This document shows positions 3,953-59,498 of a DNA stretch of 64,000 nucleotides, one piece after another. The DNA is from an uncultured Candidatus Saccharibacteria bacterium (GTDB taxonomy: Bacteria; Patescibacteriota; Minisyncoccia; Phycocordibacterales; Zambryskibacteraceae), in assembly GCA_964446535.1 (NCBI GenBank), contig CAYUOR010000001.1:71283-135282 (forward strand), in the 5' to 3' direction. The position numbers and the translations under genes are program-made. The first letter of the stretch is position 1; each line of letters starts with the position of its first letter. The notes beneath the pieces were generated by a model. That model ran no database searches. It had not been told where the DNA came from and worked only from the letters and a program-made list of their open reading frames with translations.

Positions 3953-3962
3953 GATTAAGCGC

Positions 3963-5186
3963 ATGGAAAGAGACCACAAAAAACTCGGAAAAGAACTTGG
4001 ACTTTTTTACATAGATGAAACTGTTGGTAAGGGTCTGCCTATGCTTTTGGCAAAAGGGGCGGTTATCCGCCGAGAACTAGAGCGTTTTATCGTCGATGAG
4101 GAGATAAGGAGGGGCTACAACCACGTATATACTCCAGACCTAGCGCGACTTGAGTTATATAAAAAATCAGGACACTTCCCCCACTACCGAGACTCTATGT
4201 ACGCTCCGATAAAGATAGATGATGAAGAATTTATGCTCCGCCCCATGACTTGTCCGCACCATTTTCAACTTTATCTCTCAAAACCGCATAGTTACAGAGA
4301 GCTTCCTATGCGTATAGCCGAGGTGGCAAAACTATACAGATATGAACAATCCGGAGAACTTATGGGATTGCAGAGAGTGCGTACTTTCTGTTTATCAGAT
4401 GCACACATCATTTGTGCTTCGGAGGAGGAGGCTGTCGAAGAAATGGGCGGAGCACTTGATTTAATAGAATACGCGAACGGGAAGCTTGGTCTTAAGTTTG
4501 GTATCGATTATCGCTATCGCCTTTCCCTCGGAGATAAAAAAAATACGGAAAAATACTATAAAGACGATCAAGGTTGGGAAAAAGCGGAAGATCTATTAAG
4601 AAAACTTATGAAAAAGCGTGGGGTTGAATTTGAGGAAGCAAAGAATGAGGCTGCTTTCTATGGTCCGAAAATAGATATTCAGATGAAAAATGCGAATGGT
4701 AAAGAAGACACCGCCTTTACCGTACAATACGACCTTTGCATGCCTGAAAGATTCAACCTTACCTATATTGGAGAAGATGGCAAAGAGCACCGCGCTTTTG
4801 TGGTTCATCGCTCCTCCATAGGTGCCATAGAGCGAATAATGGCTTTTCTTATAGAAAAACATGCTGGTAACTTCCCTCTTTGGCTTTCTCCGGTGCAAGT
4901 AAAAATTTTACCCATAGGAGAAACTCATATTAAGTTTGCCGAAGAAGTCCTAAAAAAGCTTAAACAAAATGACCTTAGAGCCGAGCTGGATAACTCCGGA
5001 GAAAGTCTGGCAAAAAAAGTAAGAGAGGCGAAGGTGGAAAAGGTTCCCTATATAGCTGTTATCGGAGATAAGGAGCTCACAGAAGAAAAAATCACGCTTG
5101 AGAGTAGGGATGGTGGGAAAATAGGAAGTTTGGATATAGAAAATCTAATTACGCGACTAAAGGAGGAGATCAGCAACAGAACCTAA
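3963..5186 (+). CDS. thrS: Threonyl-tRNA synthetase, short form lacking N-terminal TGS/editing domains
   Basis: class II catalytic core ('[18 protein letters not shown]', '[10 protein letters not shown]') plus C-terminal anticodon-binding domain; internal ATG 3963 used instead of track start 3792, which overlaps dnaE. Confidence 0.8.
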
Positions 5187-9819: not shown

Positions 9820-10861
9820 TTTCGTTTTCTATTAGAACATCCTTAAACTTTTCCAAGTCTTCAAGGATAATACCAGCCCCGCGAGCAACCGTTGTCAGCG
9901 GATCATCAGAGACGTAAACCGGTACATTAATTTCGCTTTCAATAAGCTCCGGTAACCCCTTAACCAAGGCGCCGCCGCCCGCAAGATAAACCCCTCTTTG
10001 CATTATGTCGCTCAAAATTTCGGGTGGAGAGGATTCAAGAACTTCTTTAATTGCTTCAACGAGACTTTCCATAGACTGTGACAGGGCGTCGCGAACATCG
10101 TTGTCGGTAATGACTATTTCCTTCGGCAGACCGGTTACCAAATCACGTCCCTTAACCGCCATCTCGAGGGGGGCGTGCGTGGGCAGGACAGAGCCAATCG
10201 AAATCTTGATTGTCTCGGCTGTTTTTTCGCCTAAAAGAACTTTAAATTGATTTCTTACGTATGCGACTATGTCCGCATTGAACTTATCTCCGGCTATACG
10301 CAAATTTTTTGACCGAACGACACCGCCTAGAGAAATGACGGCAATATCGGAGGTCCCGCCGCCAATATCAATAACCATGTTGCCCGTAGGCTCGTGAATC
10401 GGCAGACGCATACCAATAGCGGCGGCCATCGGCTCTTCTACAATATGCACTTCGCCGGCGCCTGCGTTTCTCGTGGCGTCTCTTACGGCTCGAATCTCAA
10501 CATTAGTAATATTTGAAGGTACGCCGACAACGACTCTGGGACTTAGAATTTTATTAACACCACGCGTGGCTTTACCTAAGAGATAGCTAACCATTTCCTC
10601 GGTAATTTCAAAGTCAGAAATAACACCGTCAACCAGAGGTTTTATAGCAAGAATATGGCTAGGAGTACGACCCAGCATGGCACGAGCCTCACTCCCAACA
10701 GCAACTACCTGGCCGGTTTTCTGGTTAACCGCCACGACGGACGGTTCGTTAATAACTATGCCTCGACCGCGAAGGTAGACAAGGGTGTTGGCGGTGCCCA
10801 GGTCAATACCAATGTCGTGCGAGAAAAGATTCCTCCAACCCTTTTTACCAAAAAATTTCAT
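9797..10861 (-). CDS. mreB: Rod shape-determining protein MreB (actin homolog)
   Basis: 'IGIDLGTANTLVY' phosphate-1 motif, 'DIGGGTSDIAV', 'LAGGGALV' actin/Hsp70-fold signatures. Confidence 0.9.
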   Translation of the reverse strand: MKFFGKKGWRNLFSHDIGIDLGTANTLVYLRGRGIVINEPSVVAVNQKTGQVVAVGSEARAMLGRTPSHILAIKPLVDGVISDFEITEEMVSYLLGKATRGVNKILSPRVVVGVPSNITNVEIRAVRDATRNAGAGEVHIVEEPMAAAIGMRLPIHEPTGNMVIDIGGGTSDIAVISLGGVVRSKNLRIAGDKFNADIVAYVRNQFKVLLGEKTAETIKISIGSVLPTHAPLEMAVKGRDLVTGLPKEIVITDNDVRDALSQSMESLVEAIKEVLESSPPEILSDIMQRGVYLAGGGALVKGLPELIESEINVPVYVSDDPLTTVARGAGIILEDLEKFKDVLIENESELPPKK

Positions 10862-12075
10862 TGCTGTTTCAAATCCTTTATGAGATCAGTTATGGATAAG
10901 TTCTGTGTTTTTCCGCTAGTGCGGTCTTTGACTTCAAGCGTGGTGCCTTTGGTCTTCTCGCCGACTATTACTATGGTCGGAATACCAATGAGTTCGGCGT
11001 CGGCAAACTTTTCACCCGCGCGGAGGTCGCGGTCATCGTAGAGCACCTCTACCCCTTTAGATAGAAGAGTTTCATAAATCTTATCGGCAAGTTTTTTGTT
11101 TTTATCTGAGAGAGAAATAAGATGCACCTGAAAAGGCGCGACAGATTTGGGCCATACGATACCTTTTTCGTCCGAGAGCACCTCTACGATGGTTCCCATA
11201 AGCCGCCCGAGCCCAATACCGTAAGAACCCATGATTACAGGCCTTTTTTCACCTTTTTTATCGGTAAATACAAGCCCCAGCTTTTCCGAAAAGCGAGTGC
11301 CAAGGGAAAAAATATTGCCCACTTCCACAGCTCTTTTTTCTTCTAAACCCTTGGGTGCCTCAACCTCTTTGTTTACTGCTTCTTTTTTATCCTTATTGGT
11401 TATATAAATTGTATCCTCACCTACTTCCGTCACCGTCTGAAACTCGTGAGAAAATTCCGAAAAACTCCCGCCCAGAGCTTTAGTTAGGTAAGTAAATTCA
11501 CCGATACCAACACGATCAAAAATTTTCCTGTACGCTCCTTTAATTTCCTCATAGAACTTGTTATGTTCATCTTCCGAACTTGAGAATGAATACAGATCTT
11601 TCATTACAAACTCAAGGGTGCGCATGACACCGCTTTGAGAACGGAGCTCGTTTCTGAATTTTGTCTGAAACTGATAAATATATAGAGGTAAATCTTTGTA
11701 AGAACTTACGTGTGAAGTTAGTATTTTGGTTAAAGGTTCCTCGTGGGTAAATGCCAACCCCAAGAATTGCTCACCTCTTCTTTTTGTCTTAAACCAAATG
11801 TCGTCTTCACCAAGGTCCCACCTTTCCGTTTCTCTCCAATTTTTTTCACCTTGAAGAGCGGTAAGCGAGAGCTCCTGACCACCTATCACATTCATCTCCT
11901 CTCTAATCAAATTCTCGAGCTTCTTGATGACTCTCAGACCCAGAGGCAGAAAATCGTAAACCCCCGCCATTTCTTTATTGATAAAACCTGCCCTGATAAG
12001 AAGCTTGGCGTTTTTGGCTTCTTCGTCCTTGGGTGCCTCCCTACGCGTCTTGGTGAATAGCTCGGTCTGTCGCAT
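10858..12075 (-). CDS. proS: Prolyl-tRNA synthetase, short bacterial form without INS editing domain
   Basis: 405 aa; class II motifs, 'FRNELRSQSGVMRTLEF' motif 2-like, anticodon-binding C-terminus. Confidence 0.8.
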   Translation of the reverse strand: MRQTELFTKTRREAPKDEEAKNAKLLIRAGFINKEMAGVYDFLPLGLRVIKKLENLIREEMNVIGGQELSLTALQGEKNWRETERWDLGEDDIWFKTKRRGEQFLGLAFTHEEPLTKILTSHVSSYKDLPLYIYQFQTKFRNELRSQSGVMRTLEFVMKDLYSFSSSEDEHNKFYEEIKGAYRKIFDRVGIGEFTYLTKALGGSFSEFSHEFQTVTEVGEDTIYITNKDKKEAVNKEVEAPKGLEEKRAVEVGNIFSLGTRFSEKLGLVFTDKKGEKRPVIMGSYGIGLGRLMGTIVEVLSDEKGIVWPKSVAPFQVHLISLSDKNKKLADKIYETLLSKGVEVLYDDRDLRAGEKFADAELIGIPTIVIVGEKTKGTTLEVKDRTSGKTQNLSITDLIKDLKQQ

Positions 12076-27092: not shown

Positions 27093-27626
27093 TTAGTTCG
27101 ACTGATTGAAGCGGCTCATGGCAACTTCCTTGCCGTCTGTAACTATTGTTTCGAGCGCCTCTGATGTTTTCTTAAATATTTTTTTGAGTACCGCTTCTTC
27201 AGCTGGTTTAAACTTGCCGAGAATAAAATCAAGAACCGCTTTTTCACCCTTCGGTTTTCGAACTTTGCCTGATGGGGTGCTAGGTGCGATGCCGATACGA
27301 ATGCGGATAAAATCTTCGGTCTTAAGAGCGCGAATGATCGACTCCACTCCCCTGTGACCGCCCGAGGATCTGCCGAAAGAAATCTTGAAGCGCCCTAAAG
27401 GTAAGTCGAGGTCATCATAAAGAACGATTAGTTTCTCCGCTGCTTTCTTACTTTTCACATACTTAGAGACGAAGGTGCCCGACTTATTCATAAAAACATC
27501 CGAGAAGATAAAATTTGCTTTTATCTTTTTATTTTCTGAAACAAACTCTTCGGCTAGGCGCCCGGCGTTGTGTCGGGTGTTCTCGTACATTTCTCCCGGA
27601 TTACCCAAACCTACGACGATATACAT
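27093..27626 (-). CDS. pth: Peptidyl-tRNA hydrolase
   Basis: 'MYIVVGLGNPGEMYENTRHNAG' Pth signature. Confidence 0.85.
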   Translation of the reverse strand: MYIVVGLGNPGEMYENTRHNAGRLAEEFVSENKKIKANFIFSDVFMNKSGTFVSKYVKSKKAAEKLIVLYDDLDLPLGRFKISFGRSSGGHRGVESIIRALKTEDFIRIRIGIAPSTPSGKVRKPKGEKAVLDFILGKFKPAEEAVLKKIFKKTSEALETIVTDGKEVAMSRFNQSN

Positions 27627-27673: not shown

Positions 27674-28225
27674 ATGGATTCTAATTTTTGGAAAGAGCTC
27701 ATTAAACTTCTTGTCATCTCGGTCGTAGTCGTTGTCCCTTTCCGACTTTATGTGGCTCAACCCTTCATCGTCGAGGGGGCCTCGATGGATCCAACTTTCG
27801 AGTCTGGAGACTACCTCATAGTCGACGAATTTACCTATCATTTCAAGGCGCCGCTTCGCGGTTCTGTTCTTATCTTCAAATATCCCAAAGATACTAAAAA
27901 ATCTTTTATTAAAAGGGTTATTGGCCTACCCAACGAGACGGTCATAATCTCAAACGGAGTCATAGCTATAGTCAATTCTGAGAATCCAGAAGGCTTTATT
28001 CTAGATGAGCCATATATAAAACTTACGAAGAAAGAAAACTCGCTATACAAGCTCGGCCCGAATGAATACTTTGTTCTGGGAGACAACCGTCCGGCAAGTT
28101 CGGACTCGCGCGTCTGGGGGCCGGTGCCTGAAGATAATATTATCGGGCGACCGATTATCAGATTTTTCCCGCCAGGCTATCTTCCGGGAGATAAGACGGG
28201 GAGCTACGGTTCTATAAATAATTAA
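27674..28225 (+). CDS. lepB: Signal peptidase I
   Basis: 'GASMDPTF' (Ser box), 'IKRVIGLPNETV', 'YFVLGDNRPASSDSRVWG'. Confidence 0.8.
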   Translation: MDSNFWKELIKLLVISVVVVVPFRLYVAQPFIVEGASMDPTFESGDYLIVDEFTYHFKAPLRGSVLIFKYPKDTKKSFIKRVIGLPNETVIISNGVIAIVNSENPEGFILDEPYIKLTKKENSLYKLGPNEYFVLGDNRPASSDSRVWGPVPEDNIIGRPIIRFFPPGYLPGDKTGSYGSINN

Positions 28226-29376
28226 TGGCAAAAAACGGCACATATTTAAAAAAGAGTTTGAGCGAGTTTGACAGAGCTTTGGTTGTTGCCAACTACTTTG
28301 GATTCTCTCCAACTTTTGCGCCAAAGGTCACTAGGCAGGACCTAGAGCTTGTCCGCGACTGCCCGGACCACCCACACTACGACGCGAGTGAAAAGATGGC
28401 GGTGTTAAGAAATTATATAGAGGCAAGCTCGAATTCTCTCCCCCATCCAAGCGCTTTCATTTACGAAAAGCCGCCATCCAGAAAAAAATTCGGTAGTCAT
28501 GCCTTGCACTTTATCGGCACCGTTTCGGCCGTGGCGGAAGCTAGTTTAATCAGGGCCGCTCTCTCTATCCTAGCGGAAGAAGGTTATAAGAATCTGCGAG
28601 TAGAAATGAATTGTATCGGTGACAAAGAATCTATCGGTACATATGAAAAAGAACTTCTGAACCACGTTAGAAAGTCTGGTATAAATCTCGACGACGAACT
28701 AAGACAAATTATCAGGAAAGATGTTTTTAGTATTTTCAGATTAGAGCGTTCAGAAATAGCGCCACTTCTCGAAAACGCGCCGTCCTCAATTACCTTCCTC
28801 TCGGCACAAAGTCGAGCCCACTTTAAAGAAATCCTGGAGTATATTGAGGCTCTCGGTATTGAGTTCAGATTGACACCAAAGCTTGTAGGAGAAAGAAACC
28901 ACGCCTCACACACCATCTTTGCCATAAAAAATACTGTAGAGGAGAAAGATCATACTTTAGCCCTTGGTTATCGTTATTCAAGACTTGGAAAATTCCTCGG
29001 ACTTCGTAGAGAAATACCGGTAGCCGGAGTAAATGTTTTCTCAGAACCGAAAGAAGAGAAAGAAAAAAGAATTTACAAAAAACTCCCAAAACCAAAGTTT
29101 TATCTAATCCAGCTCGGACGTGAAGCTAAAATCAAAACTCTCTCCATTATAGAGCTCCTACGAACTCACCGAATTCCGCTCTATCACCTCCTTGGAAAAG
29201 ACAAGCTTGGAGTCCAGCTTTCTCACGCAGAAAGTCTGAAGGTACCCTACCTCATCATCATTGGGCAGAAAGAAGCCCTTGAAAATACTGCCACGATAAG
29301 GAATGTTGTAACTCGTGCCCAGGATACGGTCGGTATCGCTCAATTACCCCAATATTTAAAGAGTATCGCCCTCTAG
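28225..29376 (+). CDS. Histidyl-tRNA synthetase-like protein with degenerate catalytic motifs, retaining anticodon-binding domain
   Basis: 'LLENAPSSITFLSAQSRAHFKEILEYIEALGIEFRLTPKLV' aligns to HisRS '[41 protein letters not shown]'; 'FRHERP' reads 'IYEKPP'; 'GGRYD' reads 'GYRYS'; 'RGLDYY' absent; C-terminal 'VPYLIIIGQKEALENTATIRN' HGTP anticodon domain; ATG overlaps lepB stop (taATGg). Confidence 0.5.
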   Translation: MAKNGTYLKKSLSEFDRALVVANYFGFSPTFAPKVTRQDLELVRDCPDHPHYDASEKMAVLRNYIEASSNSLPHPSAFIYEKPPSRKKFGSHALHFIGTVSAVAEASLIRAALSILAEEGYKNLRVEMNCIGDKESIGTYEKELLNHVRKSGINLDDELRQIIRKDVFSIFRLERSEIAPLLENAPSSITFLSAQSRAHFKEILEYIEALGIEFRLTPKLVGERNHASHTIFAIKNTVEEKDHTLALGYRYSRLGKFLGLRREIPVAGVNVFSEPKEEKEKRIYKKLPKPKFYLIQLGREAKIKTLSIIELLRTHRIPLYHLLGKDKLGVQLSHAESLKVPYLIIIGQKEALENTATIRNVVTRAQDTVGIAQLPQYLKSIAL

Positions 29377-29426: not shown

Positions 29427-29684
29427 ATGGCGAATAACGTCAACATAGAGGTGGTTAAAGGCTCAACGGAAAATAATTTGAGCGTTTTGAGACGTTTTAC
29501 TAAACGGGTACAGTCGGCTGGGGTTCTGCCGAAGGTTAGGACTAAGCGCTATACCCAGCGTCCGCCTTCGCGCAACACCAGGCGCGCAAAAACTCTTGCC
29601 TATTTGAAAAAGAAGGAGCTTTACAATGAGCTTCTAAGACTCGGTAAGGTAACCGAGGTAAGCAGGACAACCAGGCGCCGATAA
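29427..29684 (+). CDS. rpsU: 30S ribosomal protein S21
   Basis: 'LRRFTKRVQSAGVLPKVRTKRYTQRPPSRNTRRAK' matches S21 '[34 protein letters not shown]'; internal ATG 29427. Confidence 0.6.
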   Translation: MANNVNIEVVKGSTENNLSVLRRFTKRVQSAGVLPKVRTKRYTQRPPSRNTRRAKTLAYLKKKELYNELLRLGKVTEVSRTTRRR

Positions 29685-29685
29685 G

Positions 29686-30075
29686 TTGAGGACAAATAAA
29701 AAATTTTCTATTCCGTTTGATCGTCTAAAGGAAAGGGTCCTGGGCAAGGATTATGAGCTTTCGCTGGTTTTCGCTGACGATAAGTTGTCTCGACGCTTAA
29801 ACAGGATTTATCGTGGTAAGAATAAATCGGCCAATGTCTTGAGCTTTCCCTTGTCAAAAAAGAGCGGAGAGATTTTTTTAGACCTTGTTACTGCAGAAAA
29901 AGAGGCGCCAAGTTACAATCTTTCGTACAAAAACTTTGTCACCTTTTTGTTTATCCACGGACTGCTTCATTTGAAAGGAATGGGACACGGGCGTAAAATG
30001 ACAGAGACAGAAAAAAAATTACTATATGGCACGTCAAGTCTCAGTCGGCATAGACATAGGAACATCAGAAGTTAG
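29686..30075 (+). CDS. ybeY: Endoribonuclease YbeY (rRNA maturation factor)
   Basis: 'HGLLHLKGMGH' H-x3-H-x5-H zinc motif; 3' end overlaps ftsA by ~50 nt. Confidence 0.7.
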   Translation: MRTNKKFSIPFDRLKERVLGKDYELSLVFADDKLSRRLNRIYRGKNKSANVLSFPLSKKSGEIFLDLVTAEKEAPSYNLSYKNFVTFLFIHGLLHLKGMGHGRKMTETEKKLLYGTSSLSRHRHRNIRS

Positions 30076-31228
30076 GGTTGTTATAGCTGAGGCATTTCAA
30101 GATAACGGCAAACATGTGCCGAGAATCATCGGTACCGGCTCGGCGGAATCGCGCGGAGTCTATCGGGGTTATATAACTAACATAAACGAAGCGTCAAAGA
30201 GTCTAGAGGTCGCTCTTCGCCAGGCGGAGAAGACCGCCGGACTAAAAGTAAGAAACGCCTATGTTTCCTTCGGTGGAATAGGGCTTGGTAGTCTTACCTC
30301 TACCGGCTCTACTACAGTCTCCAGGGCAGATATGGAAATAACCGAAAAAGATCTTGAATCCGTAGCAGAAGCGGCTGGAGCACTCATCCCGCCGGCGGCC
30401 TCCATAAACAGGAAAATTTTAAACACGGTACCGATAGAATATAAAATTGATGGGAAACCAGTCTGGGGGCAGGCTCTTGGGCTTAAGGCGCAGAAACTTG
30501 AGGTCAGGGCGCTCTTTATTACCTGTCTGGAACACCATTTGGCAGACTTATTTAGCGTTGTTGAAGGGGTTGGTGTGGAGGTAAACGATGTCGTGGCGGC
30601 ACCCCTTGCAGCAAGCATGGTCACTCTGACGAAAAAGCAGAAGCGTGCCGGTGCCCTACTTGCCGACTTTGGCGCAGAAACTCTTTCTATTATGGTTTTT
30701 GAGAATAACAACATCTTGTCGCTTGAAGTTTTTCCAGTCGGTGGGAACGATATCACCAACGACATTGCTCTCGGTCTAAAGATTTCTCCAGAAAACGCCG
30801 AAGAGCTCAAGATCGGCCACGACCGCGGGCTTTCTTATCCGAAAAAGAAATTGGAAGAGATAATCGCCTCACGCTTACGCGCCGCCTTTGATTCGGTTGA
30901 CTCCCATCTAAAATCCATAGGCAGAAATGGCCTCTTACCGGCCGGCATCATCATCGCTGGTGGTAGTGCCTCGCTAACAGGGATAAAAACCGTTGCGGAA
31001 AGTTCTCTAAAACTCCCTTCCCAATTGGCGGAGGTGTATTTCGGTGATGCCAGTGAGGGTCGGATAAAAAATCGCACCTGGGCGGTCGCCTGCGGTCTGG
31101 CTCTTTTCGGCTTGAGCGCGGATGATGATGCCAGTATGGCAAGTATCGGAGGTAATACTCAAATTACTAAGCATGGAAAGAACCTTTGGGCATCGGTTAA
31201 GCGTTCGGTTCGTCAATTTTTACCATAA
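30026..31228 (+). CDS. ftsA: Cell division protein FtsA
   Basis: 'VGIDIGTSEVRVVIAE' actin-like phosphate-1 motif, SHS2 insert, synteny with ftsZ. Confidence 0.85.
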   Translation: MARQVSVGIDIGTSEVRVVIAEAFQDNGKHVPRIIGTGSAESRGVYRGYITNINEASKSLEVALRQAEKTAGLKVRNAYVSFGGIGLGSLTSTGSTTVSRADMEITEKDLESVAEAAGALIPPAASINRKILNTVPIEYKIDGKPVWGQALGLKAQKLEVRALFITCLEHHLADLFSVVEGVGVEVNDVVAAPLAASMVTLTKKQKRAGALLADFGAETLSIMVFENNNILSLEVFPVGGNDITNDIALGLKISPENAEELKIGHDRGLSYPKKKLEEIIASRLRAAFDSVDSHLKSIGRNGLLPAGIIIAGGSASLTGIKTVAESSLKLPSQLAEVYFGDASEGRIKNRTWAVACGLALFGLSADDDASMASIGGNTQITKHGKNLWASVKRSVRQFLP

Positions 31229-31275
31229 CACTTTAAAATAGTTGTCAACTACTTTTATCGAAATCCTTTGGTAAT

Positions 31276-32496
31276 ATGGGCGCATCTAAACGAGAATTTA
31301 GCATGCCACAAATAAAACCAGAGGTAGAATCATTTGCAAGAATTAAGGTTATAGGTATCGGCGGTTCCGGTAAAAACACGGTTAACCATATGATTAATTC
31401 CAAGGTTAAGGGTGTTGATTTTATCGCTGCCAACACTGACGTTCAGGATCTTCACCACTCTCTAGCTAAGAAAAAAGTTCATATCGGAAAGAATTTAACG
31501 AGGGGGCTTGGCACCGGTATGAACCCGGAGCTTGGCAAACGAGCTGTTGAAGAAACGAAAGAAGAGCTACAAGAAGCCATTAAGGGTGCGGACATGGTCT
31601 TTATCGCGGGAGGTATGGGTGGAGGCACTGGTTCTGGCGCGGCTCCAGTGGTGGCCAGAGTAGCGAAGGAAAATGGCTGCTTGACCGTCGCTGTCGTTAC
31701 GAAACCATTTTTCTTTGAAGGTCAGCAGAGAATGAGAATTGCCGAACAGGCAATAGAAGAACTGAAGCAGGCGGTCGACGCACTCATCATCATCCCAAAT
31801 GACAGACTGCTTCAAACGATAGATAAAGAAGTTACGGCTAAAAATGCCTTCGCCATCTGCGACAACATTCTAAAAGAAGCCGTAGAAGGAATTTCTGATA
31901 TTATCACCACACCCGGAATTATTAATATAGATTTCGCCGATATTCGTTCCGTTATGGAGAACGCTGGTGCGGCTCTTATGGGCATCGGCTCCGCATCGGG
32001 AGAAAGTCGAGCGGTCGAAGCGGCTAAAGCAGCTATCAGCTCCCCTCTTCTTGAAATCTCTATCAACGGTGCCAAGGGCGTTCTCTTCTCCATTGCTGGC
32101 GGCGATGATGTCACTATGTTTGAAATACAGGATGCCGCGAAAATTATTACCGAGTCGGTAGATCCAAACGCTAAAATTATCTTCGGTACAACCCGAAACG
32201 ATAAGCTCAAAAAAGGTGAGGTAAAAATTACCGTTATTGCTTCTAATTTCCCGGAAAACTATCCAAGAAAATCAAACTCGCTTTTCCAAACGTTTGCCGG
32301 AGAGGAAGAAAGGGCCAAGAGCAAACTTTTCCAGGCTCCTCACGCCAAGGAACCGATGAAGCAGCCGGTGGCCGCATCAGAGGTTCGAGATAAGAGGGTC
32401 GAAATGAAGCAAACTCCCCCTCCCCCGCCTGTAGAAGACAATGATGATGACTGGAGCGCTGTTCCCGCATTTCTCCGACGTTCGAAATTAAAGTAA
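31276..32496 (+). CDS. ftsZ: Cell division protein FtsZ
   Basis: 'IKVIGIGGSGKNTVNHM', 'GGMGGGTGSGAAPVVA' tubulin signature, acidic and basic C-terminal tail. Confidence 0.9.
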   Translation: MGASKREFSMPQIKPEVESFARIKVIGIGGSGKNTVNHMINSKVKGVDFIAANTDVQDLHHSLAKKKVHIGKNLTRGLGTGMNPELGKRAVEETKEELQEAIKGADMVFIAGGMGGGTGSGAAPVVARVAKENGCLTVAVVTKPFFFEGQQRMRIAEQAIEELKQAVDALIIIPNDRLLQTIDKEVTAKNAFAICDNILKEAVEGISDIITTPGIINIDFADIRSVMENAGAALMGIGSASGESRAVEAAKAAISSPLLEISINGAKGVLFSIAGGDDVTMFEIQDAAKIITESVDPNAKIIFGTTRNDKLKKGEVKITVIASNFPENYPRKSNSLFQTFAGEEERAKSKLFQAPHAKEPMKQPVAASEVRDKRVEMKQTPPPPPVEDNDDDWSAVPAFLRRSKLK

Positions 32497-33491: not shown

Positions 33492-33497
33492 ATTTTG

Positions 33498-33570
33498 TGC
33501 GCGATAGAGGACTTGAACCTCTGACCCTCCCCACGTCAAGGGGATGCTCTACCAACTGAGCTAACCGCGC
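33498..33570 (-). tRNA. tRNA-Val (anticodon GAC)
   Basis: hand-folded cloverleaf: acceptor GCGCGGT/ATCGCGC, anticodon loop TTGACGT, T-loop GGTTCAAGTCC; CCA not encoded. Confidence 0.75.
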
Positions 33571-33627
33571 GACGACGGAAATATTAACATTTTTCTTTAA
33601 ATTTGCTAGTATAGGCAAGCTCAAGCG

Positions 33628-33714
33628 GGAGGCGTGGCTGAGTGGTTGAAGGCACCGGTTTCGAAAACCGGCAGGTCCGCAAGGGTCTCAGAGGTTCGAA
33701 TCCTCTCGCCTCCG
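33628..33714 (+). tRNA. tRNA-Ser (anticodon CGA)
   Basis: acceptor GGAGGCG/CGCCTCC, anticodon loop TTCGAAA, long variable arm, T-loop GGTTCGAATCC; CCA not encoded. Confidence 0.75.
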
Positions 33715-33728
33715 CCCCCAAAATAAAA

Positions 33729-33800
33729 GGCCCTATCGTCTATCGGTTAGGACACGAGCTTTTCAAGCTCGGAAGCCGGGTTCGATTCCCGGTAGGGTCA
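33729..33800 (+). tRNA. tRNA-Glu (anticodon TTC)
   Basis: acceptor GGCCCTA/TAGGGTC, anticodon loop TTTTCAA, T-loop GGTTCGATTCC; ends 5 nt before tsaD ATG. Confidence 0.75.
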
Positions 33801-33805
33801 CAAAA

Positions 33806-38333: not shown

Positions 38334-40403
38334 ATGAATGATAAGTTTCTTAAGCCCTATAATCCCAACGAAATAGAGCCAGAAATATATAAAATTTGGG
38401 AGAAAAGTGGATTTTTTAACCCAGATAACCTGCCCGGTAAAAGGGGTCCTGCCTTTACTATTATTATGCCTCCGCCTAACGCCAACGGGAGTCTTCACTC
38501 TGGACACGTACTCTTCATCACTCTGGAGGATATTATGGTGAGGTTCAAGAGAATGTGTGGCTTTAGAGCTCTTTGGCTCCCAGGAGCAGATCATGCTGGT
38601 TTTGAAACACAGGTCGTTTTTGAAAAAAAACTTGAAAAAGAGGGCAGCTCCAGGTTCGGTATGGACCCGACCGAGCTTTATCAAAGGATTCTTACCTTTA
38701 CACTCGAGAATAAGAAGCATATGGAAAGCCAGGTTAAATCCCTCGGCGCCTCTTGTGACTGGTCACGAGAAAAGTTCACTCTAGACCCAGATATCATAGA
38801 AAAAACTCAAGAAACATTTATAAAAATGTTTGAGGACGGATTAATTTATCGCGGAGAGAGAACAATCAACTGGTGCTCAAAACATGCTACCTCTCTTTCT
38901 GAAGTGGAAACTGAGTCTGTTGAAGAGGTTTCACCTTTTTATTATTTTCGATACGGCCCATTCGAGATAGGTACCGTTAGACCCGAAACTAAATTCGGTG
39001 ATAAGTATGTTGTTATGAATCCTAATGATAAGCGTTATTTAAAATACAAACATGGAGAGACTCTTGAGGTTGAGTGGATAAACGGACCGATAAAAGCAAC
39101 TGTTATAAAAGACGATGCGGTCGACATGGAGTTTGGCACCGGTGTTATGACTATTACACCCTGGCACTCACAAATAGATCTCGAGATTGCGGAGCGCCAC
39201 GGACTTGATGTAGAGCAGATTATAGACTGGCGAGGAAAACTTTTGCCGATAGCTGGAGAATTTAGTGGTATGAATATAAAAGAAGCTCGTCCAAAAATCG
39301 TTGAAAAGCTAAGAGCTAAGGGTCTTCTCACCAGGATTGATGAAAATTATAAAAATGTAATTAAGAAATGTTACAAGTGTAATACCGTTATAGAACCGCA
39401 AGTGAAAAAGCAGTGGTTCGTCAAAATGGAGCCTTTAGCGAAAATGGCGCTAAAGGCTGTAAGTGACGGGAAAATTAAATTTATTCCTGATAATTATGAA
39501 AAAATTTTCCGATATTGGATGGAGAATACAACTGACTGGAACATTTCTCGTCAGATAGTTTGGGGTATTTCTATCCCAGCTTGGTTTCGTGGAGAAGATG
39601 TCGCGGTTAGCCTTGATAAGCCCTCTGGCGAAGGCTGGGCGAGAGATCCTGATACGTTTGATACATGGTTTTCAAGCGGTCAATGGCCTCTTTTCATGAC
39701 TGGCTATCCGGACGGCAAAGATTTTAAAAAATTTTACCCTACGGACGTGATGGAGACTGGGCACGACCTTATATTCAAATGGGTGCCGCGCATGGTTATC
39801 TTTGGCCTATATTTAACCAAAAAAGTGCCTTTTCACACCGTTTACCTCCACGGCCTGGTTAACGATGCCCAGGGTAAAAAGATGAGCAAGTCGAAAGGTA
39901 ATGTTGTTGATCCGCTTGTATTAACCGGAAAATACGGTACTGATGCCCTGCGTATGACTCTTGTTGTCGGTAATACTCCTGGCACCGATCTCTCGCTTAG
40001 AGAGGAGAAAATAAAGGGTTATAAAAATTTTGCCAACAAGCTCTGGAATATAACTCGTTTTGTACTCTCTCGAGAAGATAGGGGTGCCTTGGATAAAAAA
40101 CTTGTTAAAGAGTTCAATTCTCTCGCAAAGGATGTGACGAATGACATGGAAAACTTCAGATTCTATTTGGCGGCTGAAAAGCTTTATGCCTATATCTGGC
40201 ACACCTTTGCTGATAAAATTATTGAAGAGAGTAAAAATTCTGAGGAAGCGGGAAAAACTCTTTATTACATTCTAGAGAATTCACTAAAACTTCTTCACCC
40301 ATTTATGCCGTTTATTACAGAAGAAATCTGGCAAGAACTGCGTGCTAAGAATAAAAAGATAGGTAAGGAAGACCTTCTGATGATTGAACCCTGGCCAGTA
40401 TGA
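38334..40403 (+). CDS. valS: Valyl-tRNA synthetase, short form without C-terminal coiled-coil
   Basis: 'PPPNANGSLHSGHVL' HIGH region of ValRS type, CP1 editing region, 'KMSKSKGNVVDP' KMSKS; 689 aa. Confidence 0.8.
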   Translation: MNDKFLKPYNPNEIEPEIYKIWEKSGFFNPDNLPGKRGPAFTIIMPPPNANGSLHSGHVLFITLEDIMVRFKRMCGFRALWLPGADHAGFETQVVFEKKLEKEGSSRFGMDPTELYQRILTFTLENKKHMESQVKSLGASCDWSREKFTLDPDIIEKTQETFIKMFEDGLIYRGERTINWCSKHATSLSEVETESVEEVSPFYYFRYGPFEIGTVRPETKFGDKYVVMNPNDKRYLKYKHGETLEVEWINGPIKATVIKDDAVDMEFGTGVMTITPWHSQIDLEIAERHGLDVEQIIDWRGKLLPIAGEFSGMNIKEARPKIVEKLRAKGLLTRIDENYKNVIKKCYKCNTVIEPQVKKQWFVKMEPLAKMALKAVSDGKIKFIPDNYEKIFRYWMENTTDWNISRQIVWGISIPAWFRGEDVAVSLDKPSGEGWARDPDTFDTWFSSGQWPLFMTGYPDGKDFKKFYPTDVMETGHDLIFKWVPRMVIFGLYLTKKVPFHTVYLHGLVNDAQGKKMSKSKGNVVDPLVLTGKYGTDALRMTLVVGNTPGTDLSLREEKIKGYKNFANKLWNITRFVLSREDRGALDKKLVKEFNSLAKDVTNDMENFRFYLAAEKLYAYIWHTFADKIIEESKNSEEAGKTLYYILENSLKLLHPFMPFITEEIWQELRAKNKKIGKEDLLMIEPWPV

Positions 40404-49101: not shown

Positions 49102-52100
49102 CTACTGACCTGTTGAGTAAGCCGATCTCGACTTCGGTCCGAAGTAACCGCTTGAAGGCAAGATTGCCTTAGCTCTCTGCCACCTGATTACGGCGGACTG
49201 AGTTGCGGGACCGAAATAAGTACTCTCATTCCCTACCGAGCCAAGACCGGAGGACGAAACGGTAAAGCCCTGGGAGTTAAGATACTTCTGGAGACAGCGC
49301 ACATCCTCACCGGATGAACCGAGAGTTAGGTCTCTAGTAAAGGAACACGTTCCTGAAGGCAGGCCGGCCCCCTGAGAGATGAGAAAATTTATGAGGGTCT
49401 GAAGCTCTAAGATTTTGGCTGTGAGGATTGAGATCTGCTGGGCTTCAGGGAGCGAGTTGAAGTTTGAAGGTAAAACACCAATAGATGACGGGATAGAAAC
49501 TGGGCTACCGCCTCCACCACCGCCACGTCCTCCACCGCCCGAAGAGACTGGCGGATCTTGAGGCGTTGGAATCGGCGTTGGCGGGTTAATAGATTCTGGG
49601 GCGGTGAAGCTTACCGTGGCCGGATCAGAATAGTTTTCCTGATCGTCGTAGACAAAGAGTGAGTAGTAATAGACTGTTCCGGGAGTAACAGAAGTATCGG
49701 TAAAGCTAGAGCCAGTGACTCGAGCTACTTCAAAATTCGCATCGTATTGATTGAGGTAGCCGGTGGTGGAGCGCAAGATTGCCACACCAGAGTAGCCTGT
49801 GAAAGATATTGGACTCCAGTTTAGGATGATAGAGCCAGGTGAGGCTGTGACTAGGTTGATTCTTGGTGGCCGACTTCTTACGGTGAAGGTGGTGTTATTG
49901 GAAAGCCCAGTAAGGTTGTTGGCGACTGATCTTGCTCTGGCATTGTAGCTACCAGAATTAAAGCCAGAAACAACAACCTCATGAGAAGTTCTTAAGATGG
50001 TGCTCACAGCCGACTGGGTCCCATAAGCAGTGGTTGCGCCGTATTCAACTTGAGATGTTGCCGGTCTATCCGTGTTCCACCTGAATCTTGCTTCTCCTTG
50101 TCTAACTTGAACCGAGAAATTTGAAACAGTCGGCGCTGCAGTAATCGGCGGTGCGGACGCCACCGTGACAGAGGTACTTGTATTAGAATTTCCCCCACTT
50201 CCCGTGCAGGTAAGGGTGTATGTGGTGTTTGCGGTTGGTGTTACCGACTGCGTTCCGCTTGTGCTCTTCGTACCACTCCAGCCGTTTGATGCTGTGCAAC
50301 TCGTGGCATTTGTTGAACTCCAGGTGAGAGTGCTTGAATTGCCAGAAGTGACTGACGTCGGGTTAGCCGAAAGAGAAACGGTTGGGGCGGGGGTTGGTGA
50401 TGGTGGCGGAGGCGAGGTCTGACCGCCAGAATTGTTGTATGTTGGTAAGGCTGATTCAGAGGTCGCCATGGCGAAATCATCCATATACATCCATGTGTCC
50501 CTATTACGATAGAGACGGCTGTCCACGAACTCGCCCCAGGTTGTGGGCATTCTAAGAATTCTGTGTCCTCTAGACACCTGCTCAGGTGGTAGTATCCAAT
50601 TAAAGTTCGGTGTAACACCGTGGATCCATTCGGCAACCTTAACCCAATCCTGTCCGAGTGGTCGTATCCACGCCTCATACTTCCCTGTGCCGTCAGAGGT
50701 GTCCATATGGAGCTTAACAAGTTGCCAGCGGTTCGGGGTAATAAATTCATTTCTATTTTGCTGATACAGTTTCCATTGATCCCAATCGGGTTCGGTCAAT
50801 ATATCCGCGCCAGTACCAAGATTTTTCATAAAGGCGCTACCAGTATCGTAACTTTCAGGAGCAGGATTATCTAAGACAAAGAGCCAGTTGTGGTATTGGC
50901 CGGTACCCGGGCACGGATAAGACCTATTGCACGGATAGATAAATTTGCCACCAGTAAAACCGCTATTCTGAAATTGATTCTTGTTAATGTATACCCAGAA
51001 CTGGAACCAAACGTTGCTAGGAATATAGTTTTCAAATTCCGTACCATCTCCTCCCATCTGAAGATAGAAATCAGTTTGGCCATTCAGGGTTGCTGATAAG
51101 CCTTCTATTGCGAGAGCGCGCGAACCGCCACTTGGAAATGGGCTAGTTGTTCCGGGAATATTTGTAACGGTGTATAGGTAACCACCAGCACCTCCAGGCC
51201 TTGTTGTTTCGTCTTTAAGTCCGGTCCAACCAGCTGATGTAAAAGCGGAAGCTTTCGTCGCTCCAGAATCAAATTTTCCTACTGGATACTCAAAGTTATC
51301 AAATAAGAGGAGACCTGATGGTGTTGGTGCGGGCGGTGTTGGTGCGGGCGGTGTTGGTGCGGGCGGTGTTGGTGTCGGCACGGTCGTCACCGTAATAGAA
51401 GTATTAGCGCTGGCACTCCCTCCACTTCCCGTGCAGGTAAGGATGTATGTGGTGTTGGTGGTGGGCGTTACCGACTGCGTTCCGCTTGTGCTCTTCGTGC
51501 CGCTCCAGCCGTTTGATGCTGTGCAACTCGTGGCGTTCGTTGAACTCCAGGTGAGGGTGCTTGAACCGCCTTGAGTAATTGAAGTTGGATTGGCCGAAAG
51601 AGAGACGGTTGGGGCTGGTGTCGGCGATGGAGGTGGTGGCGGTGCTGGGTCGGTATAGGGGTTGAGGAAGTCATCTGCAACCCAGCCGTCAAAAGAGGTA
51701 TCAAAGTTAATTCCCCACCACCAGTAATTTGTGCCAGAGAGAGATGCGTAAGTGGGTCCGCCGGTAACAGTACCAGTCGCACCAGAGGGTTGTGTACCGA
51801 GCGAGGTACCGGCTGCTGTTGAGCGGACATTCACCGTTGCGTTCGTCTGAATACGACTACCAGTAGTAAAGCGCGTTGGCGGCACAATTTGTGTTGGCGG
51901 AGGAGGTGGAGGTAGTGGCGTAGAGCCGTATGTCGGCAGGGCTGATTCTGAAGTCGCCATGGCGAAATCGTCCATGTAGAGCCAAGCATCGTAGTTCGTA
52001 TTATCAGAGAAGTTGGCTGTGCCCCAAGTGGATGGCATTCTCAAAACTCTATGCCCGCCCTCAGAACCACTGGGAATGTCCCAGACGAAGCCGGGTGTAA

Positions 52101-56320: not shown

Positions 56321-56323
56321 TTT

Positions 56324-59486: not shown

Positions 59487-59498
59487 TCTGTGTGAAAA

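What the first reader, a model, noticed from the sequence alone, without database searches (positions are those of the whole stretch)
28225..29376. Catalytically degenerate HisRS paralog retaining the anticodon-binding domain, start/stop-coupled to signal peptidase I
The central region aligns convincingly with HisRS ('LLENAPSS...HFKEILEYIEALGIEFRL'). The class II motif 2 and HisRS-specific motifs are replaced (IYEKPP for FRHERP, GYRYS for GGRYD, no RGLDYY). The N-terminal 'GxxDxxP' region is missing. HisZ-type paralogs normally lack the anticodon-binding domain and pair with HisG, which a CPR is not expected to have. A pseudo-HisRS that still has an anticodon-binding domain could be a tRNA-binding regulator or chaperone. 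Alternatively it may be an extremely divergent genuine HisRS.
Basis: partly seen in the sequence, partly recalled or inferred. Interest (0 to 1): 0.55.

Follow-up and report, generated by a model that had tools for sequence, protein, structure and literature searches.

The report
Inactive HisRS relic retaining anticodon reader
This gene descends from the bacterium's own histidyl-tRNA synthetase but has lost every part needed for catalysis, yet it keeps the three residues that read the tRNA-His anticodon almost unchanged; relatives that carry it also have a separate archaeal-type enzyme that most likely does the charging.

Summary
ORF 28225-29376 (383 aa) has a HisRS fold, and its start overlaps the signal peptidase I stop (TAATG). 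It lacks motif 2 and its loop, the HisA arginine, the motif 3 arginine, RPExT and the N-terminal GxxD motif. It keeps dimer motif 1, the insertion domain and the anticodon-binding domain.

It belongs to a large monophyletic Parcubacteria/Paceibacteria family in which 0 of 342 sequences retain these catalytic motifs. It is not a stray paralog: canonical, intermediate and degenerate forms all sit directly downstream of lepB, so it is the positional ortholog of the native bacterial-type hisS.

Two member genomes (one on the same contig, one in the same MAG) also encode an archaeal-type HisRS that passes the hisS cutoff and keeps its catalytic motifs.

The three side chains that read the GUG anticodon in the T. 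thermophilus complex (E388, K397, Q404) map to E350, R359 and Q366. These are invariant in 80 of 80 genome-derived members.

Best reading: a non-catalytic relic that still binds the tRNA-His anticodon, left over after an archaeal-type enzyme took over. Its cellular role is unknown, and the window's own genome could not be checked for the second enzyme.

The parts
27093..27626 (-). pth (peptidyl-tRNA hydrolase), part of the conserved upstream synteny
   Evidence: Translation. The ortholog lies next to lepB in L001, L025, L028 and L098 (Pfam Pept_tRNA_hydro).
27674..28225 (+). lepB (signal peptidase I). Its stop codon overlaps the start of the HisRS-like gene.
   Evidence: Peptidase_S26 in the orthologous loci. 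TAATG junction. lepB lies directly upstream of the degenerate gene in 71 of 76 genomes by the strict criterion, and within 205-305 nt in the other 5.
28225..29376 (+). Degenerate, non-catalytic HisRS-like gene, 383 aa
   Evidence: 100% identical to P0001, which PGAP-style names describe as a 'His/Gly/Thr/Pro-type tRNA ligase C-terminal domain-containing protein' family.
28273..28323 (+). Retained class II motif 1 / dimer-interface segment (residues 17-33, '...YFGFSPTFAP')
   Evidence: G26 and F27 are invariant or nearly so in the family and in canonical CPR HisRS.
28450..28518 (+). Degenerate motif 2 region (residues 76-98, 'SAFIYEKPPSRKKFGSHALHFIG'). The motif 2 Arg is replaced by Ile, the loop is deleted, and the E131 equivalent is His95.
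   Evidence: Alignments. The R113 equivalent is Arg in 0 of 80 genomes.
28615..28869 (+). HisRS insertion domain, retained (residues 131-215, including 'APSSITFLSAQSRAHFKEILEYIE')
   Evidence: Helical in the AF2 model. Second most conserved domain, top-residue frequency 0.53. P186, L192, H199, E202, E205 and E208 are conserved and identical in the canonical enzyme.
28870..29040 (+). Remnants of HisA (GERNHA), HisB (LGYRYS) and motif 3 (VAGVNVFSE). The catalytic arginines are lost, and G248/R250/Y251 are kept.
29095..29373 (+). Class IIa anticodon-binding domain (residues 291-383), the most conserved part
   Evidence: Pfam PF03129 at 1.3e-11. Top-residue frequency 0.59. Consensus is 81% identical to the canonical CPR HisRS consensus over 37 comparable columns.
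29263..29322 (+). Anticodon-reading segment G347-Q366, containing E350, R359 and Q366. These equal T. thermophilus E388 (reads G34), K397 (reads G36) and Q404 (reads U35).
   Evidence: Contacts from PMC4357726. Mapping from the alignment to 1adj_A. 100/99/99% conserved in the ~136 aligned family sequences (135 representatives plus the window protein) and 80/80 each in genome-derived members.
29427..29684 (+). S21-like small ORF, conserved immediately downstream of the degenerate gene
   Evidence: TIGR00030 S21p scores 21.3 bits, below the 28.95 cutoff. An ORF of 78-85 aa sits at the same position in L001, L028, L052, L065 and L098.
29686..32496 (+). ybeY - ftsA - ftsZ, the downstream synteny specific to degenerate-bearing genomes
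   Evidence: Pfam YbeY and translations. ftsA lies downstream in 65 of 70 genomes and ybeY in 61 of 70. Canonical-bearing genomes have def-fmt-S30AE there instead.

Best explanation
The gene is the in-place descendant of the lineage's native, lepB-linked, bacterial-type histidyl-tRNA synthetase. It has become a pseudoenzyme.

Shown: it has lost every element that binds ATP, histidine, G-1 and the acceptor end. It keeps the HisRS fold, dimer motif 1, the insertion domain and the anticodon-binding domain. The three side chains that read the GUG anticodon in a solved HisRS:tRNA-His complex are invariant across the family. The family is one old clade under purifying selection. At least two member genomes also encode an archaeal/eukaryal-type HisRS with all catalytic motifs intact.

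Inferred: an ancestor of this Paceibacteria clade acquired, or came to rely on, the archaeal-type HisRS. That released the native enzyme from catalytic constraint. The relic was retained because, as a HisRS-like dimer, it still binds tRNA-His through the anticodon. It therefore acts as a non-catalytic tRNA-His-binding factor, for example a buffer, chaperone, sensor or regulator.

Not known: its cellular role, and whether the window's own genome carries the archaeal-type enzyme.
For: Loss of catalysis:
- hisS equivalog score is 102.7 against a cutoff of 286.75. Canonical CPR HisRS scores 400.1 and the archaeal-type enzyme 374.5.
- Motif losses and deletions are seen.
- 0/120, 0/142 and 0/80 family sequences have motif 2, HisA, motif 3 or RPExT.
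- The R113 and R259 equivalents are Arg in 0 of 80.

Real protein under selection:
- AF2 pLDDT 85.5 with a HisRS fold.
- 68% identity between the window and L001, similar to lepB (70%), ftsA (67%) and TsaD (69%).
- The clade is monophyletic in 200/200 bootstraps and nested in canonical CPR HisRS.

Positional orthology: canonical (L025, L026/27), intermediate (L030-33) and degenerate (window, L001, L028, 76 of 76 genomes with room) genes all lie directly downstream of lepB.

A second, competent HisRS in member genomes:
- L098/L114: both genes on contig JBAYKL010000001.1, 8.3 kb apart.
- MAG CAZWGR01: degenerate gene on contig 47 (L065) and archaeal-type HisRS on contig 12 (L199).
- Probable third case by identical 75,000-bp contig length.
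- The second enzyme's best PDB match is Thermoplasma HisRS at 289 bits, against 125-167 bits for bacterial enzymes. PGAP names it histidine--tRNA ligase. Its motifs are intact in all orthologs.

Retained tRNA reading:
- The ABD is the most conserved domain and is 81% identical in consensus to the canonical enzyme.
- E350/R359/Q366 equal TtHisRS E388/K397/Q404, invariant in 80/80.
- No new family-specific conserved site has appeared.
Against: - The window's own genome was not shown to hold another HisRS. There is none in the 64 kb, and the rest of the genome could not be read.
- Co-occurrence is shown in only two genomes, and one of those rests on MAG binning.
- Whether canonical-bearing relatives lack the archaeal-type enzyme is untested, so the order of events (displacement followed by decay) is inferred.
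- tRNA binding is inferred from residue conservation only. In E. coli and T. thermophilus the anticodon contributes weakly to HisRS recognition (PMC4357726), and the acceptor-end and G-1 contacts are gone, so affinity could be low.
- No partner, operon or context clue points to a specific cellular role.
Confidence: 0.72

Rival explanations
1. It is the organism's only HisRS, extremely divergent but still charging tRNA-His with a remodelled active site.
For: It occupies the housekeeping hisS slot downstream of lepB. It is conserved and under purifying selection. No other HisRS is present in the 64-kb window. JGI annotation calls some members histidyl-tRNA synthetase.
Against: All three ATP-contacting arginines, the motif 2 loop including the adenine-stacking Phe, RPExT and the G-1 pocket are deleted or replaced. 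No alternative conserved polar site has emerged. The His pocket glycine G286 is replaced by bulky residues. Two member genomes carry a competent archaeal-type HisRS.
Confidence: 0.03
2. It is a HisZ-like allosteric subunit that regulates ATP phosphoribosyltransferase (HisG) or another enzyme.
For: It is a HisRS homolog without catalytic residues, as HisZ is. PGAP names the intermediate P0262 'ATP phosphoribosyltransferase regulatory subunit'.
Against: HisZ lacks the anticodon-binding domain (established knowledge: Sissler et al. 1999), and this protein keeps it with invariant anticodon readers. HisZ models barely match it: NF008951 at E 0.12, 11 bits against a cutoff of 364. Histidine-pocket positions are not conserved. 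No hisG is present in the window or in any flank examined, and CPR bacteria generally lack histidine biosynthesis (established knowledge, not tested here).
Confidence: 0.03
3. It is a non-catalytic subunit that pairs with a catalytic partner, either the archaeal-type HisRS or another protein, and supplies tRNA-His binding in trans. This would resemble PheRS beta or SLIMP/SerRS2.
For: Dimer motif 1 is retained. It co-occurs with a catalytic HisRS. Heterodimers of active and degenerate class II cores are known (established knowledge).
Against: The archaeal-type HisRS has its own anticodon-binding domain (Pfam PF03129). It is only about 29% identical to the bacterial-type lineage, so a mixed dimer interface is unlikely. 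The two genes are not linked in most genomes: they are within 10 kb in 1 of 80 loci. My earlier idea that the canonical enzyme lacks an ABD was disproved.
Confidence: 0.08
4. The fold is retained for a job unrelated to tRNA-His, such as a scaffold or a binder of another RNA or protein. This would resemble the Pol gamma accessory subunit, which reuses a GlyRS-like fold.
For: No direct evidence of tRNA binding exists. The gene sits among envelope and division genes (lepB, ftsA, ftsZ).
Against: The lepB linkage is ancestral for canonical hisS as well. The positions under the strongest constraint are exactly the three GUG-reading side chains, and they keep the ancestral residues, which is hard to explain without the anticodon as ligand.
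Confidence: 0.1
5. It is a decaying pseudogene or an annotation or assembly artefact.
For: Catalytic motifs are destroyed. Some canonical hisS genes in related MAGs are truly disrupted.
Against: The reading frame is intact in all 342 sequences examined and in 80 species-representative genomes. Mean column identity among close members is 71%. The structure model is confident. The divergence rate equals that of neighbouring housekeeping genes.
Confidence: 0.01

Closest known systems
Bacterial-type HisRS of Patescibacteria (lepB-linked hisS, e.g. P0392, P0395, P0397)
   Same: Same genomic slot, same fold, and same three-part architecture of core, insertion domain and ABD. 33-37% identity. The ABD consensus is 81% identical, and the anticodon readers E, R and Q are the same.
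   Different: The canonical enzymes keep GxRD, the KEMYT hairpin, RPE(H/G)T, FRH(D/E)xPQxGR, RGL(S/D)YY, GGGRYD and GxxxGxDR, and score 400 bits on TIGR00442. This protein has none of these motifs and scores 103 bits.
HisZ (ATP phosphoribosyltransferase regulatory subunit)
   Same: A HisRS-derived bacterial pseudoenzyme without aminoacylation residues. PGAP even gives this name to the intermediate P0262.
   Different: HisZ has no anticodon-binding domain, retains a histidine-binding pocket and works with short-form HisG (established knowledge). This protein has an ABD, has a non-conserved His pocket and has no HisG context.
GCN2 HisRS-like domain (eukaryotes)
   Same: A non-catalytic HisRS mimic repurposed around tRNA and translation status (PMC11363354, PMC11606652). 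It is the nearest functional analogy for a pseudo-HisRS that still engages tRNA.
   Different: It is a domain of a eukaryotic protein kinase, is not specific for tRNA-His, and arose independently. This is a stand-alone bacterial protein with HisRS-specific anticodon readers.
Other degenerate class II synthetase relatives (PheRS beta catalytic-like domain, SLIMP, Pol gamma accessory subunit)
   Same: A class II core that has lost motif 2/3 function while the fold and an RNA- or partner-binding role persist (established knowledge).
   Different: Those proteins work as obligate subunits of defined complexes. No partner is known here, and the origin is different: here the native housekeeping gene itself decayed after a xenolog took over.
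Archaeal-type aaRS in CPR bacteria (TyrRS, TrpRS)
   Same: A precedent for archaeal-type synthetases in CPR genomes (PMC5370408). The archaeal-type HisRS found here fits that pattern.
   Different: In that report, as far as I read it, no retained native pseudo-synthetase is described. Here the displaced native gene persists across a whole clade.

Membership tests
Histidine--tRNA ligase (class IIa HisRS, NCBIfam TIGR00442 equivalog) | Whole-protein score above the curated equivalog cutoff | tested here: not met
   102.7 bits against a cutoff of 286.75. Canonical CPR HisRS scores 400.1 and the archaeal-type HisRS 374.5.
Histidine--tRNA ligase (class IIa HisRS, NCBIfam TIGR00442 equivalog) | Class II motif 2 with its invariant Arg (E. 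coli R113) and the motif 2 loop | tested here: not met
   R113 is replaced by Ile79 and the loop carries a 10-aa deletion. Arg at this position in 0 of 80 genomes.
Histidine--tRNA ligase (class IIa HisRS, NCBIfam TIGR00442 equivalog) | HisA motif RGLDYY with the catalytic Arg (R259), and HisB motif GGRYD | tested here: not met
   HisA reads GERNHA, with the R259 equivalent being Gly; Arg in 0 of 80. HisB reads LGYRYS, keeping only G, R and Y.
Histidine--tRNA ligase (class IIa HisRS, NCBIfam TIGR00442 equivalog) | Class II motif 3 (GxxxGxER) with its invariant Arg (R311) | tested here: not met
   The segment is shortened to VAGVNVFSEP and followed by a variable Lys-rich linker. 0 of 342 sequences match the motif.
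Histidine--tRNA ligase (class IIa HisRS, NCBIfam TIGR00442 equivalog) | HisRS fold with helical insertion domain and C-terminal HGTP anticodon-binding domain | tested here: met
   AF2 model. The Foldseek top 50 are all HisRS. PF03129 at 1.3e-11.
Histidine--tRNA ligase (class IIa HisRS, NCBIfam TIGR00442 equivalog) | Histidine activation and tRNA-His aminoacylation activity | not testable with these tools
   Needs ATP-PPi exchange and charging assays.
HisZ (ATP phosphoribosyltransferase regulatory subunit) | Match to HisZ family models | tested here: not met
   The only hit is NF008951 at E 0.12 and 11.2 bits, against a cutoff of 364.
HisZ (ATP phosphoribosyltransferase regulatory subunit) | HisRS-like core without an anticodon-binding domain | tested here: not met
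   An ABD is present and is the most conserved domain.
HisZ (ATP phosphoribosyltransferase regulatory subunit) | Co-occurrence with short-form hisG and the histidine biosynthesis genes | tested here: inconclusive
   No hisG was seen among the window ORFs annotated or in the genes called in the flanks of L001, L025-L033 and L194-L202. The flanks of the 160 scan loci were not annotated, and whole genomes could not be read.
Degenerate lepB-linked HisRS-like family of Parcubacteria/Paceibacteria (PGAP: 'His/Gly/Thr/Pro-type tRNA ligase C-terminal domain-containing protein') | Full-length homology to family members with the same motif losses | tested here: met
   The top 120 listed hits are 57-100% identical. 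142 representatives at 33-60% identity. All lack motif 2, HisA, motif 3 and RPExT. Monophyletic in 200/200 bootstraps.
Degenerate lepB-linked HisRS-like family of Parcubacteria/Paceibacteria (PGAP: 'His/Gly/Thr/Pro-type tRNA ligase C-terminal domain-containing protein') | Synteny pth - lepB - gene - S21-like - ybeY - ftsA - ftsZ | tested here: met
   Window. L001, L028, L052, L065 and L098. Statistics across 80 genomes.
Degenerate lepB-linked HisRS-like family of Parcubacteria/Paceibacteria (PGAP: 'His/Gly/Thr/Pro-type tRNA ligase C-terminal domain-containing protein') | Co-occurrence with an archaeal-type, competent HisRS in the same genome | tested here: inconclusive
   Met for JBAYKL01 (same contig) and CAZWGR01 (same MAG), and probable for CAZGUZ01. 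It could not be tested for the window's genome or for the other members.

The most novel reading that the evidence does not exclude
The relic is a dedicated tRNA-His sensor or regulator, which would make it a bacterial, stand-alone counterpart of the GCN2 HisRS-like domain. It would grip the GUG anticodon and became indispensable to a whole Paceibacteria clade once an archaeal-type HisRS took over charging. It might gate access of tRNA-His to the foreign enzyme, buffer or protect tRNA-His, or report its charging state. If so, a housekeeping synthetase was converted in place into an RNA-binding regulator across hundreds of species.
Probability: 0.3. Interest if true: 0.8.

Novelty: new variant of a known kind. 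Interest (0 to 1): 0.6.

Why it matters
Synthetase genes are often replaced by horizontally acquired ones, and the displaced native gene is normally lost. Here the displaced native HisRS appears to have been kept for a very long time across a large CPR clade. It has lost its chemistry, but its anticodon-reading residues are unchanged.

This gives a clean natural example of an essential enzyme turning into a pseudoenzyme in place. It also identifies a candidate tRNA-His-specific binding protein in organisms with minimal regulatory repertoires.

There is a practical annotation problem too. Pipelines variously call these proteins histidyl-tRNA synthetase, HisZ, or a generic C-terminal-domain protein. 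That affects single-copy marker counts and metabolic reconstructions for Patescibacteria.

The hypothesis is directly testable with recombinant protein and tRNA-His anticodon variants.

Tried and rejected
1. Split-enzyme idea. A profile search for canonical CPR HisRS returned only proteins of 375 aa or less without an ABD. That suggested a catalytic-only subunit complemented by this protein. I rejected it: complete cluster members are 433-479 aa and do have an ABD. The short hits come from a search bias toward fragments and frameshifted genes.

2. General decay of lepB-linked canonical hisS. L025 and L029 carry internal deletions, but both were picked from that biased list, so I draw no general conclusion.

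3. A second bacterial-type copy left next to def-fmt after a duplication. There is no def/fmt in the window, and I could not test this elsewhere.

4. The search with the N-terminus of the intermediate P0265 gave only 3 hits. That search was largely wasted, although it did reveal the canonical CPR type.

5. Attempts to link the archaeal-type HisRS to the window genome. Flank orthology gave only a shared BipA-containing block between L139 and L052/L041. Near-identical proteins gave nothing beyond L098=L114.

6. tRNA-His genes, to check G-1/C73 identity. None is present in the window or in about 2.3 Mb of loci.

7. Literature. I found no paper on a bacterial pseudo-HisRS with an ABD, or on HisRS in CPR/Patescibacteria.
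Full report

Yes. ORF 28225-29376 (+) encodes 383 aa. The lepB stop and the ORF's ATG share one base, TAATG.

The protein is clearly a HisRS homolog, but it does not pass as one:
- NCBIfam hisS TIGR00442 gives E 2.1e-29 but only 102.7 bits, against a curated cutoff of 286.75.
- Pfam finds only the HGTP anticodon-binding domain (1.3e-11, residues 294-380). tRNA-synt_His scores E 0.12.
- The best PDB sequence match is S. aureus HisRS at 5.9e-17.
- An AlphaFold2 model built on a 27-sequence family alignment is confident, with pLDDT 85.5 and pTM 0.88.
- All top-50 Foldseek hits in the PDB are HisRS. The best is the T. thermophilus HisRS:tRNA-His complex 4rdx_A at 1.5e-24.

I used E. coli HisRS as a ruler. 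I also aligned the protein with canonical CPR HisRS sequences.
- There is no N-terminal G(M/T)RD motif.
- A deletion of about 20-30 aa removes the KEMYTxKxKGG hairpin.
- RPExT is replaced by ASEK.
- The motif 2 Arg is replaced by Ile79, and the loop carries a 10-aa deletion.
- The E131 equivalent is His95.
- HisA reads GERNHA, with R259 replaced by Gly.
- HisB reads LGYRYS.
- Motif 3 is shortened and has no Arg.

**2. What family is it?**

The protein is 100% identical to P0001. It has 366 hits in the 5.8-billion-protein set. The top 120 are all 370-400 aa and 57-100% identical, and they come from Zambryskibacteria, Minisyncoccia or Parcubacteria MAGs. PGAP usually names them 'His/Gly/Thr/Pro-type tRNA ligase C-terminal domain-containing protein'.

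An exhaustive HMMER scan of 1.84 billion cluster representatives finds 309 clusters at E<=1e-30. The top 150 are 33-61% identical.

None of the 120 close hits, and none of the 142 representatives of 300 aa or more, has motif 2, HisA, motif 3 or RPExT. Twenty-three keep only the HisB motif GGRY[DN].

Close members share 71% mean column identity. Between the window and its relative L001 the protein is 68% identical, similar to lepB (70%), ftsA (67%) and TsaD (69%). It is therefore a functional protein under ordinary purifying selection, not a decaying gene.

**3. Where did it come from?**

Canonical HisRS does exist in the same radiation. Full-length examples are P0392 (444 aa), P0395 (435 aa), P0396 and P0397 (433 aa) and P0393 (479 aa). 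They have every catalytic motif and an ABD, and P0392 scores 400 bits on TIGR00442. They share the family's distinctive sequences: YYGFxPIETP, INSIGDKE, HFKEVLEYLE, and a very similar ABD.

Two 'intermediate' proteins, P0265 (440 aa) and P0262 (450 aa), keep the full N-terminal architecture but already have mutated catalytic residues. PGAP calls P0262 a HisZ.

A bootstrapped NJ tree puts all fully degenerate sequences in one clade (200/200). The clade is nested inside canonical CPR HisRS, near P0393, P0262 and P0265 (146/200).

Synteny settles the relationship. All three forms lie immediately downstream of lepB:
- canonical: L025, with SBP-gyrA-MBL-S1-pth-lepB-hisS-def-fmt, and L026/27;
- intermediate: L030-33;
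- degenerate: the window, L001 and L028.

The upstream block is shared between the window and L025, with gyrA 67% and S1 66% identical. Across 80 species-representative genomes, lepB is directly upstream wherever there is room: 71 of 76 by the strict criterion, and within 205-305 nt in the other 5. ftsA follows in 65 of 70 and ybeY in 61 of 70.

The gene is therefore the positional ortholog of the native housekeeping hisS, not an added paralog. Its coupling to signal peptidase I is ancestral.

**4. Who charges tRNA-His?**

The window has no other HisRS. It does hold ThrRS, LysRS, ProRS and ValRS.

I scanned one genome per GTDB species with a family alignment. The pattern was H[FL]xE[VI]LE[YFH][LIV]E. 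At least 599 stretches matched and 538 were confirmed as relatives; this pattern also fits canonical CPR HisRS, so that total covers both types. I kept the best 80 loci, and all 80 are degenerate.

Screening their 1.26 Mb of sequence for any HisRS found one second gene, in L098. This is contig JBAYKL010000001.1, 207,849 bp, from a Candidatus Paceibacterota MAG. It lies 8.3 kb upstream of pth-lepB-degenerate.

That protein (442 aa, P0410) has these properties:
- It carries GVRDFYP, LRPEMTPT, FRYEKPQRGRTREHWQF, RGFDYY, GGGRYDD, PAVGFGMGD and an ABD.
- It scores 374.5 bits on TIGR00442, above the cutoff.
- Its closest solved relative is the archaeal Thermoplasma acidophilum HisRS (289 bits), followed by trypanosomal HisRS (256 and 248 bits). 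Bacterial HisRS structures score 125-167 bits.
- It is only about 29% identical to the CPR bacterial-type enzyme.
- PGAP names it 'histidine--tRNA ligase' in Paceibacterota, and names a relative (P0417) the same way in a Campbellbacteria MAG.

A metagenome scan found 144 relatives. All orthologs examined at 53% identity or more keep FRYExPQxGRxRE (two have variant motif 2 sequences), RGFDYYT and GGGRYD. They share a typical neighbourhood: BipA ... TruB - HisRS - RNase-H-like exonuclease.

There is a second, independent co-occurrence. The archaeal-type HisRS P0434 is on CAZWGR010000012.1 (GCA_964633555.1), and the degenerate locus L065 is CAZWGR010000047.1. These have the same WGS prefix, so they belong to the same MAG. 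P0434 clusters at 90% or more with P0432, which is about 56% identical to the L098 enzyme, so this is a different lineage.

A third case is probable but not verifiable. P0432 is recorded on an NCBI contig of exactly 75,000 bp, and the degenerate-bearing contig CAZGUZ010000004.1 (L074) is also 75,000 bp. From the accession names, both appear to come from the same study.

One sighting in 1.26 Mb of flanks is about what random placement of one gene per genome of roughly 0.8 Mb predicts (my estimate is about 1.5).

**5. What is still constrained?**

| Domain (window residues) | Top-residue frequency within the degenerate family | Consensus identity to canonical CPR HisRS |
|---|---|---|
| Core 1 (1-130) | 0.42 | 48% |
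| Insertion domain (131-215) | 0.53 | 52% |
| Core 2 (216-290) | 0.43 | 45% |
| ABD (291-383) | 0.59 | 81% (37 comparable columns) |

Nearly every position that is 85% or more conserved in the family has the same residue in the canonical enzyme, where the canonical sequences can be compared. The only exception is R197, which is Lys in the canonical set. So no new site has evolved. The family keeps a subset of the ancestral constraints.

The T. thermophilus HisRS:tRNA-His structure paper (PMC4357726) reports base-specific anticodon contacts: G34 with E386-E388 (E388A lowers activity 5-fold), G36 with K397 (K397Q lowers it 9-fold), and U35 with Q404. The ungapped C-terminal alignment to 1adj_A maps E388, K397 and Q404 to E350, R359 and Q366. 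These are 100%, 99% and 99% conserved in the ~136 aligned family sequences (135 representatives plus the window protein). They are 80/80 each in the genome-derived set, whose members are only 32-40% identical to the window protein. Canonical CPR enzymes have E, R and Q at the same positions.

By contrast, the paper's G-1 and acceptor-end contacts lie in the deleted or scrambled segments. These are R7, E64, G72'/G73', E114, R115, Q117, K118, R120 and R122. The R113 and R259 equivalents are Arg in 0 of 80. The histidine-pocket glycine G286 is replaced by Val, Ile or Phe, and by Tyr in the window protein.

**6. Interpretation**

Shown:
- The protein is a non-catalytic, conserved, in-place descendant of the native HisRS.
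- It has intact anticodon readers.
- A competent archaeal-type HisRS is present in at least two member genomes.

Inferred:
- The archaeal-type enzyme took over charging at the base of the clade.
- The relic persists because it still binds tRNA-His through the GUG anticodon, probably as a dimer.

Unknown:
- what that binding is for;
- whether the window's genome follows the rule.

The rivals are all disfavoured by specific tests. They are: sole divergent HisRS, HisZ-like regulator, trans-acting subunit, tRNA-unrelated scaffold, and pseudogene. Details are in the rival list.

**7. Comparison and novelty**

The closest relatives by descent are the lepB-linked bacterial-type HisRS of Patescibacteria. 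The protein fails the defining catalytic features and the curated cutoff, so it should not be filed as a histidine--tRNA ligase.

It resembles HisZ only in being a HisRS-derived pseudoenzyme. It fails the HisZ models and has the ABD that HisZ lacks.

The nearest functional analogy is the eukaryotic GCN2 HisRS-like domain (PMC11363354, PMC11606652), which arose independently.

Archaeal-type TyrRS and TrpRS in CPR are a precedent for the xenolog (PMC5370408).

I found no paper describing this family. I rate it a new variant of a known kind, an aaRS-derived pseudoenzyme, with moderate-to-good interest.

Noticed in passing
L025:10001-11267 (GCA_044220935.1) and L029:71-1224 (GCA_016196605.1): Canonical lepB-linked hisS genes in two MAGs are broken by internal deletions plus a frame change. 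L025 lacks the 16 aa spanning the HisA motif, and L029 lacks about 50 aa at the motif 3/ABD junction. Other canonical hits have out-of-frame tails or are split (P0311, P0345+P0394, P0350, P0369, P0379). This could be MAG error or real decay. The sample was biased toward fragments.
   Followed up: partly
P0262 (L030-L033; GCA_018828745.1, GCA_018819755.1) and P0265: Full-length (440-450 aa) 'intermediate' lepB-linked HisRS proteins keep the canonical N-terminal architecture, but motif 2, HisA and (in P0265) motif 3 residues are already mutated. PGAP annotates P0262 as 'ATP phosphoribosyltransferase regulatory subunit' (HisZ), which is probably a misannotation.
   Followed up: partly
window 10858-12075 (-), 3792-5186 (+), 38334-40403 (+): Three other synthetases in the window are trimmed versions. 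ProRS is 405 aa and matches the proS model in two pieces, so it appears to have no INS editing domain. ThrRS is 464 aa and aligns only from model position 167, so it has no N-terminal TGS or editing domains. ValRS is 689 aa and covers model positions 2-696 of 860, so it has no C-terminal coiled coil.
   Followed up: partly
window 29427-29684 (+): A small basic ORF lies immediately downstream of the HisRS-like gene. It looks like ribosomal protein S21 but scores below the curated cutoff (TIGR00030 21.3 against 28.95 bits; no Pfam hit). An ORF of 78-85 aa sits at the same position in other degenerate-bearing genomes.
   Followed up: partly
L194:5361-11883, L199:3536-9076, L139, L098:262-2260: The archaeal-type HisRS has its own conserved neighbourhood: BipA GTPase, then a bPH_2/AlbA_2 protein, then TruB (-), then HisRS (+), then an RNase_H_2-like exonuclease (+). 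The BipA-containing block is shared with the degenerate loci L052 and L041, where pth-lepB-degenerate follows instead. This points to a rearrangement breakpoint.
   Followed up: partly
window 49102-55161 (-) and 56883-62042 (-): There is a giant 2019-aa ORF, which I did not examine, followed by two tandem proteins of about 850 aa with DUF2341 and Laminin_G_3 domains and two ORFs with no Pfam hit (55466-56881). They are probably surface or adhesion proteins.
   Followed up: no
L038-L113 record titles: Many genome records that carry this Paceibacteria-type locus are titled 'uncultured Candidatus Saccharibacteria bacterium', and one (L108) is titled 'Draconibacterium orientale'. These are probably taxonomic mislabels or bin contamination in the public records.
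   Followed up: no
window 33497-33801 and many loci L034-L113: The tRNA-Val / tRNA-Ser / tRNA-Glu cluster downstream of ftsZ-trxB recurs in the degenerate-bearing loci (29 Glu, 27 Ser and 22 Val genes found). No tRNA-His gene is present in any of the roughly 2.3 Mb examined.
   Followed up: partly
(method): A profile search with an N-terminal 214-aa query returned only cluster representatives of 375 aa or less, although full-length members exist in the same clusters. The word-index candidate step seems to favour short fragments, and this briefly suggested a false 'split enzyme'.
   Followed up: yes
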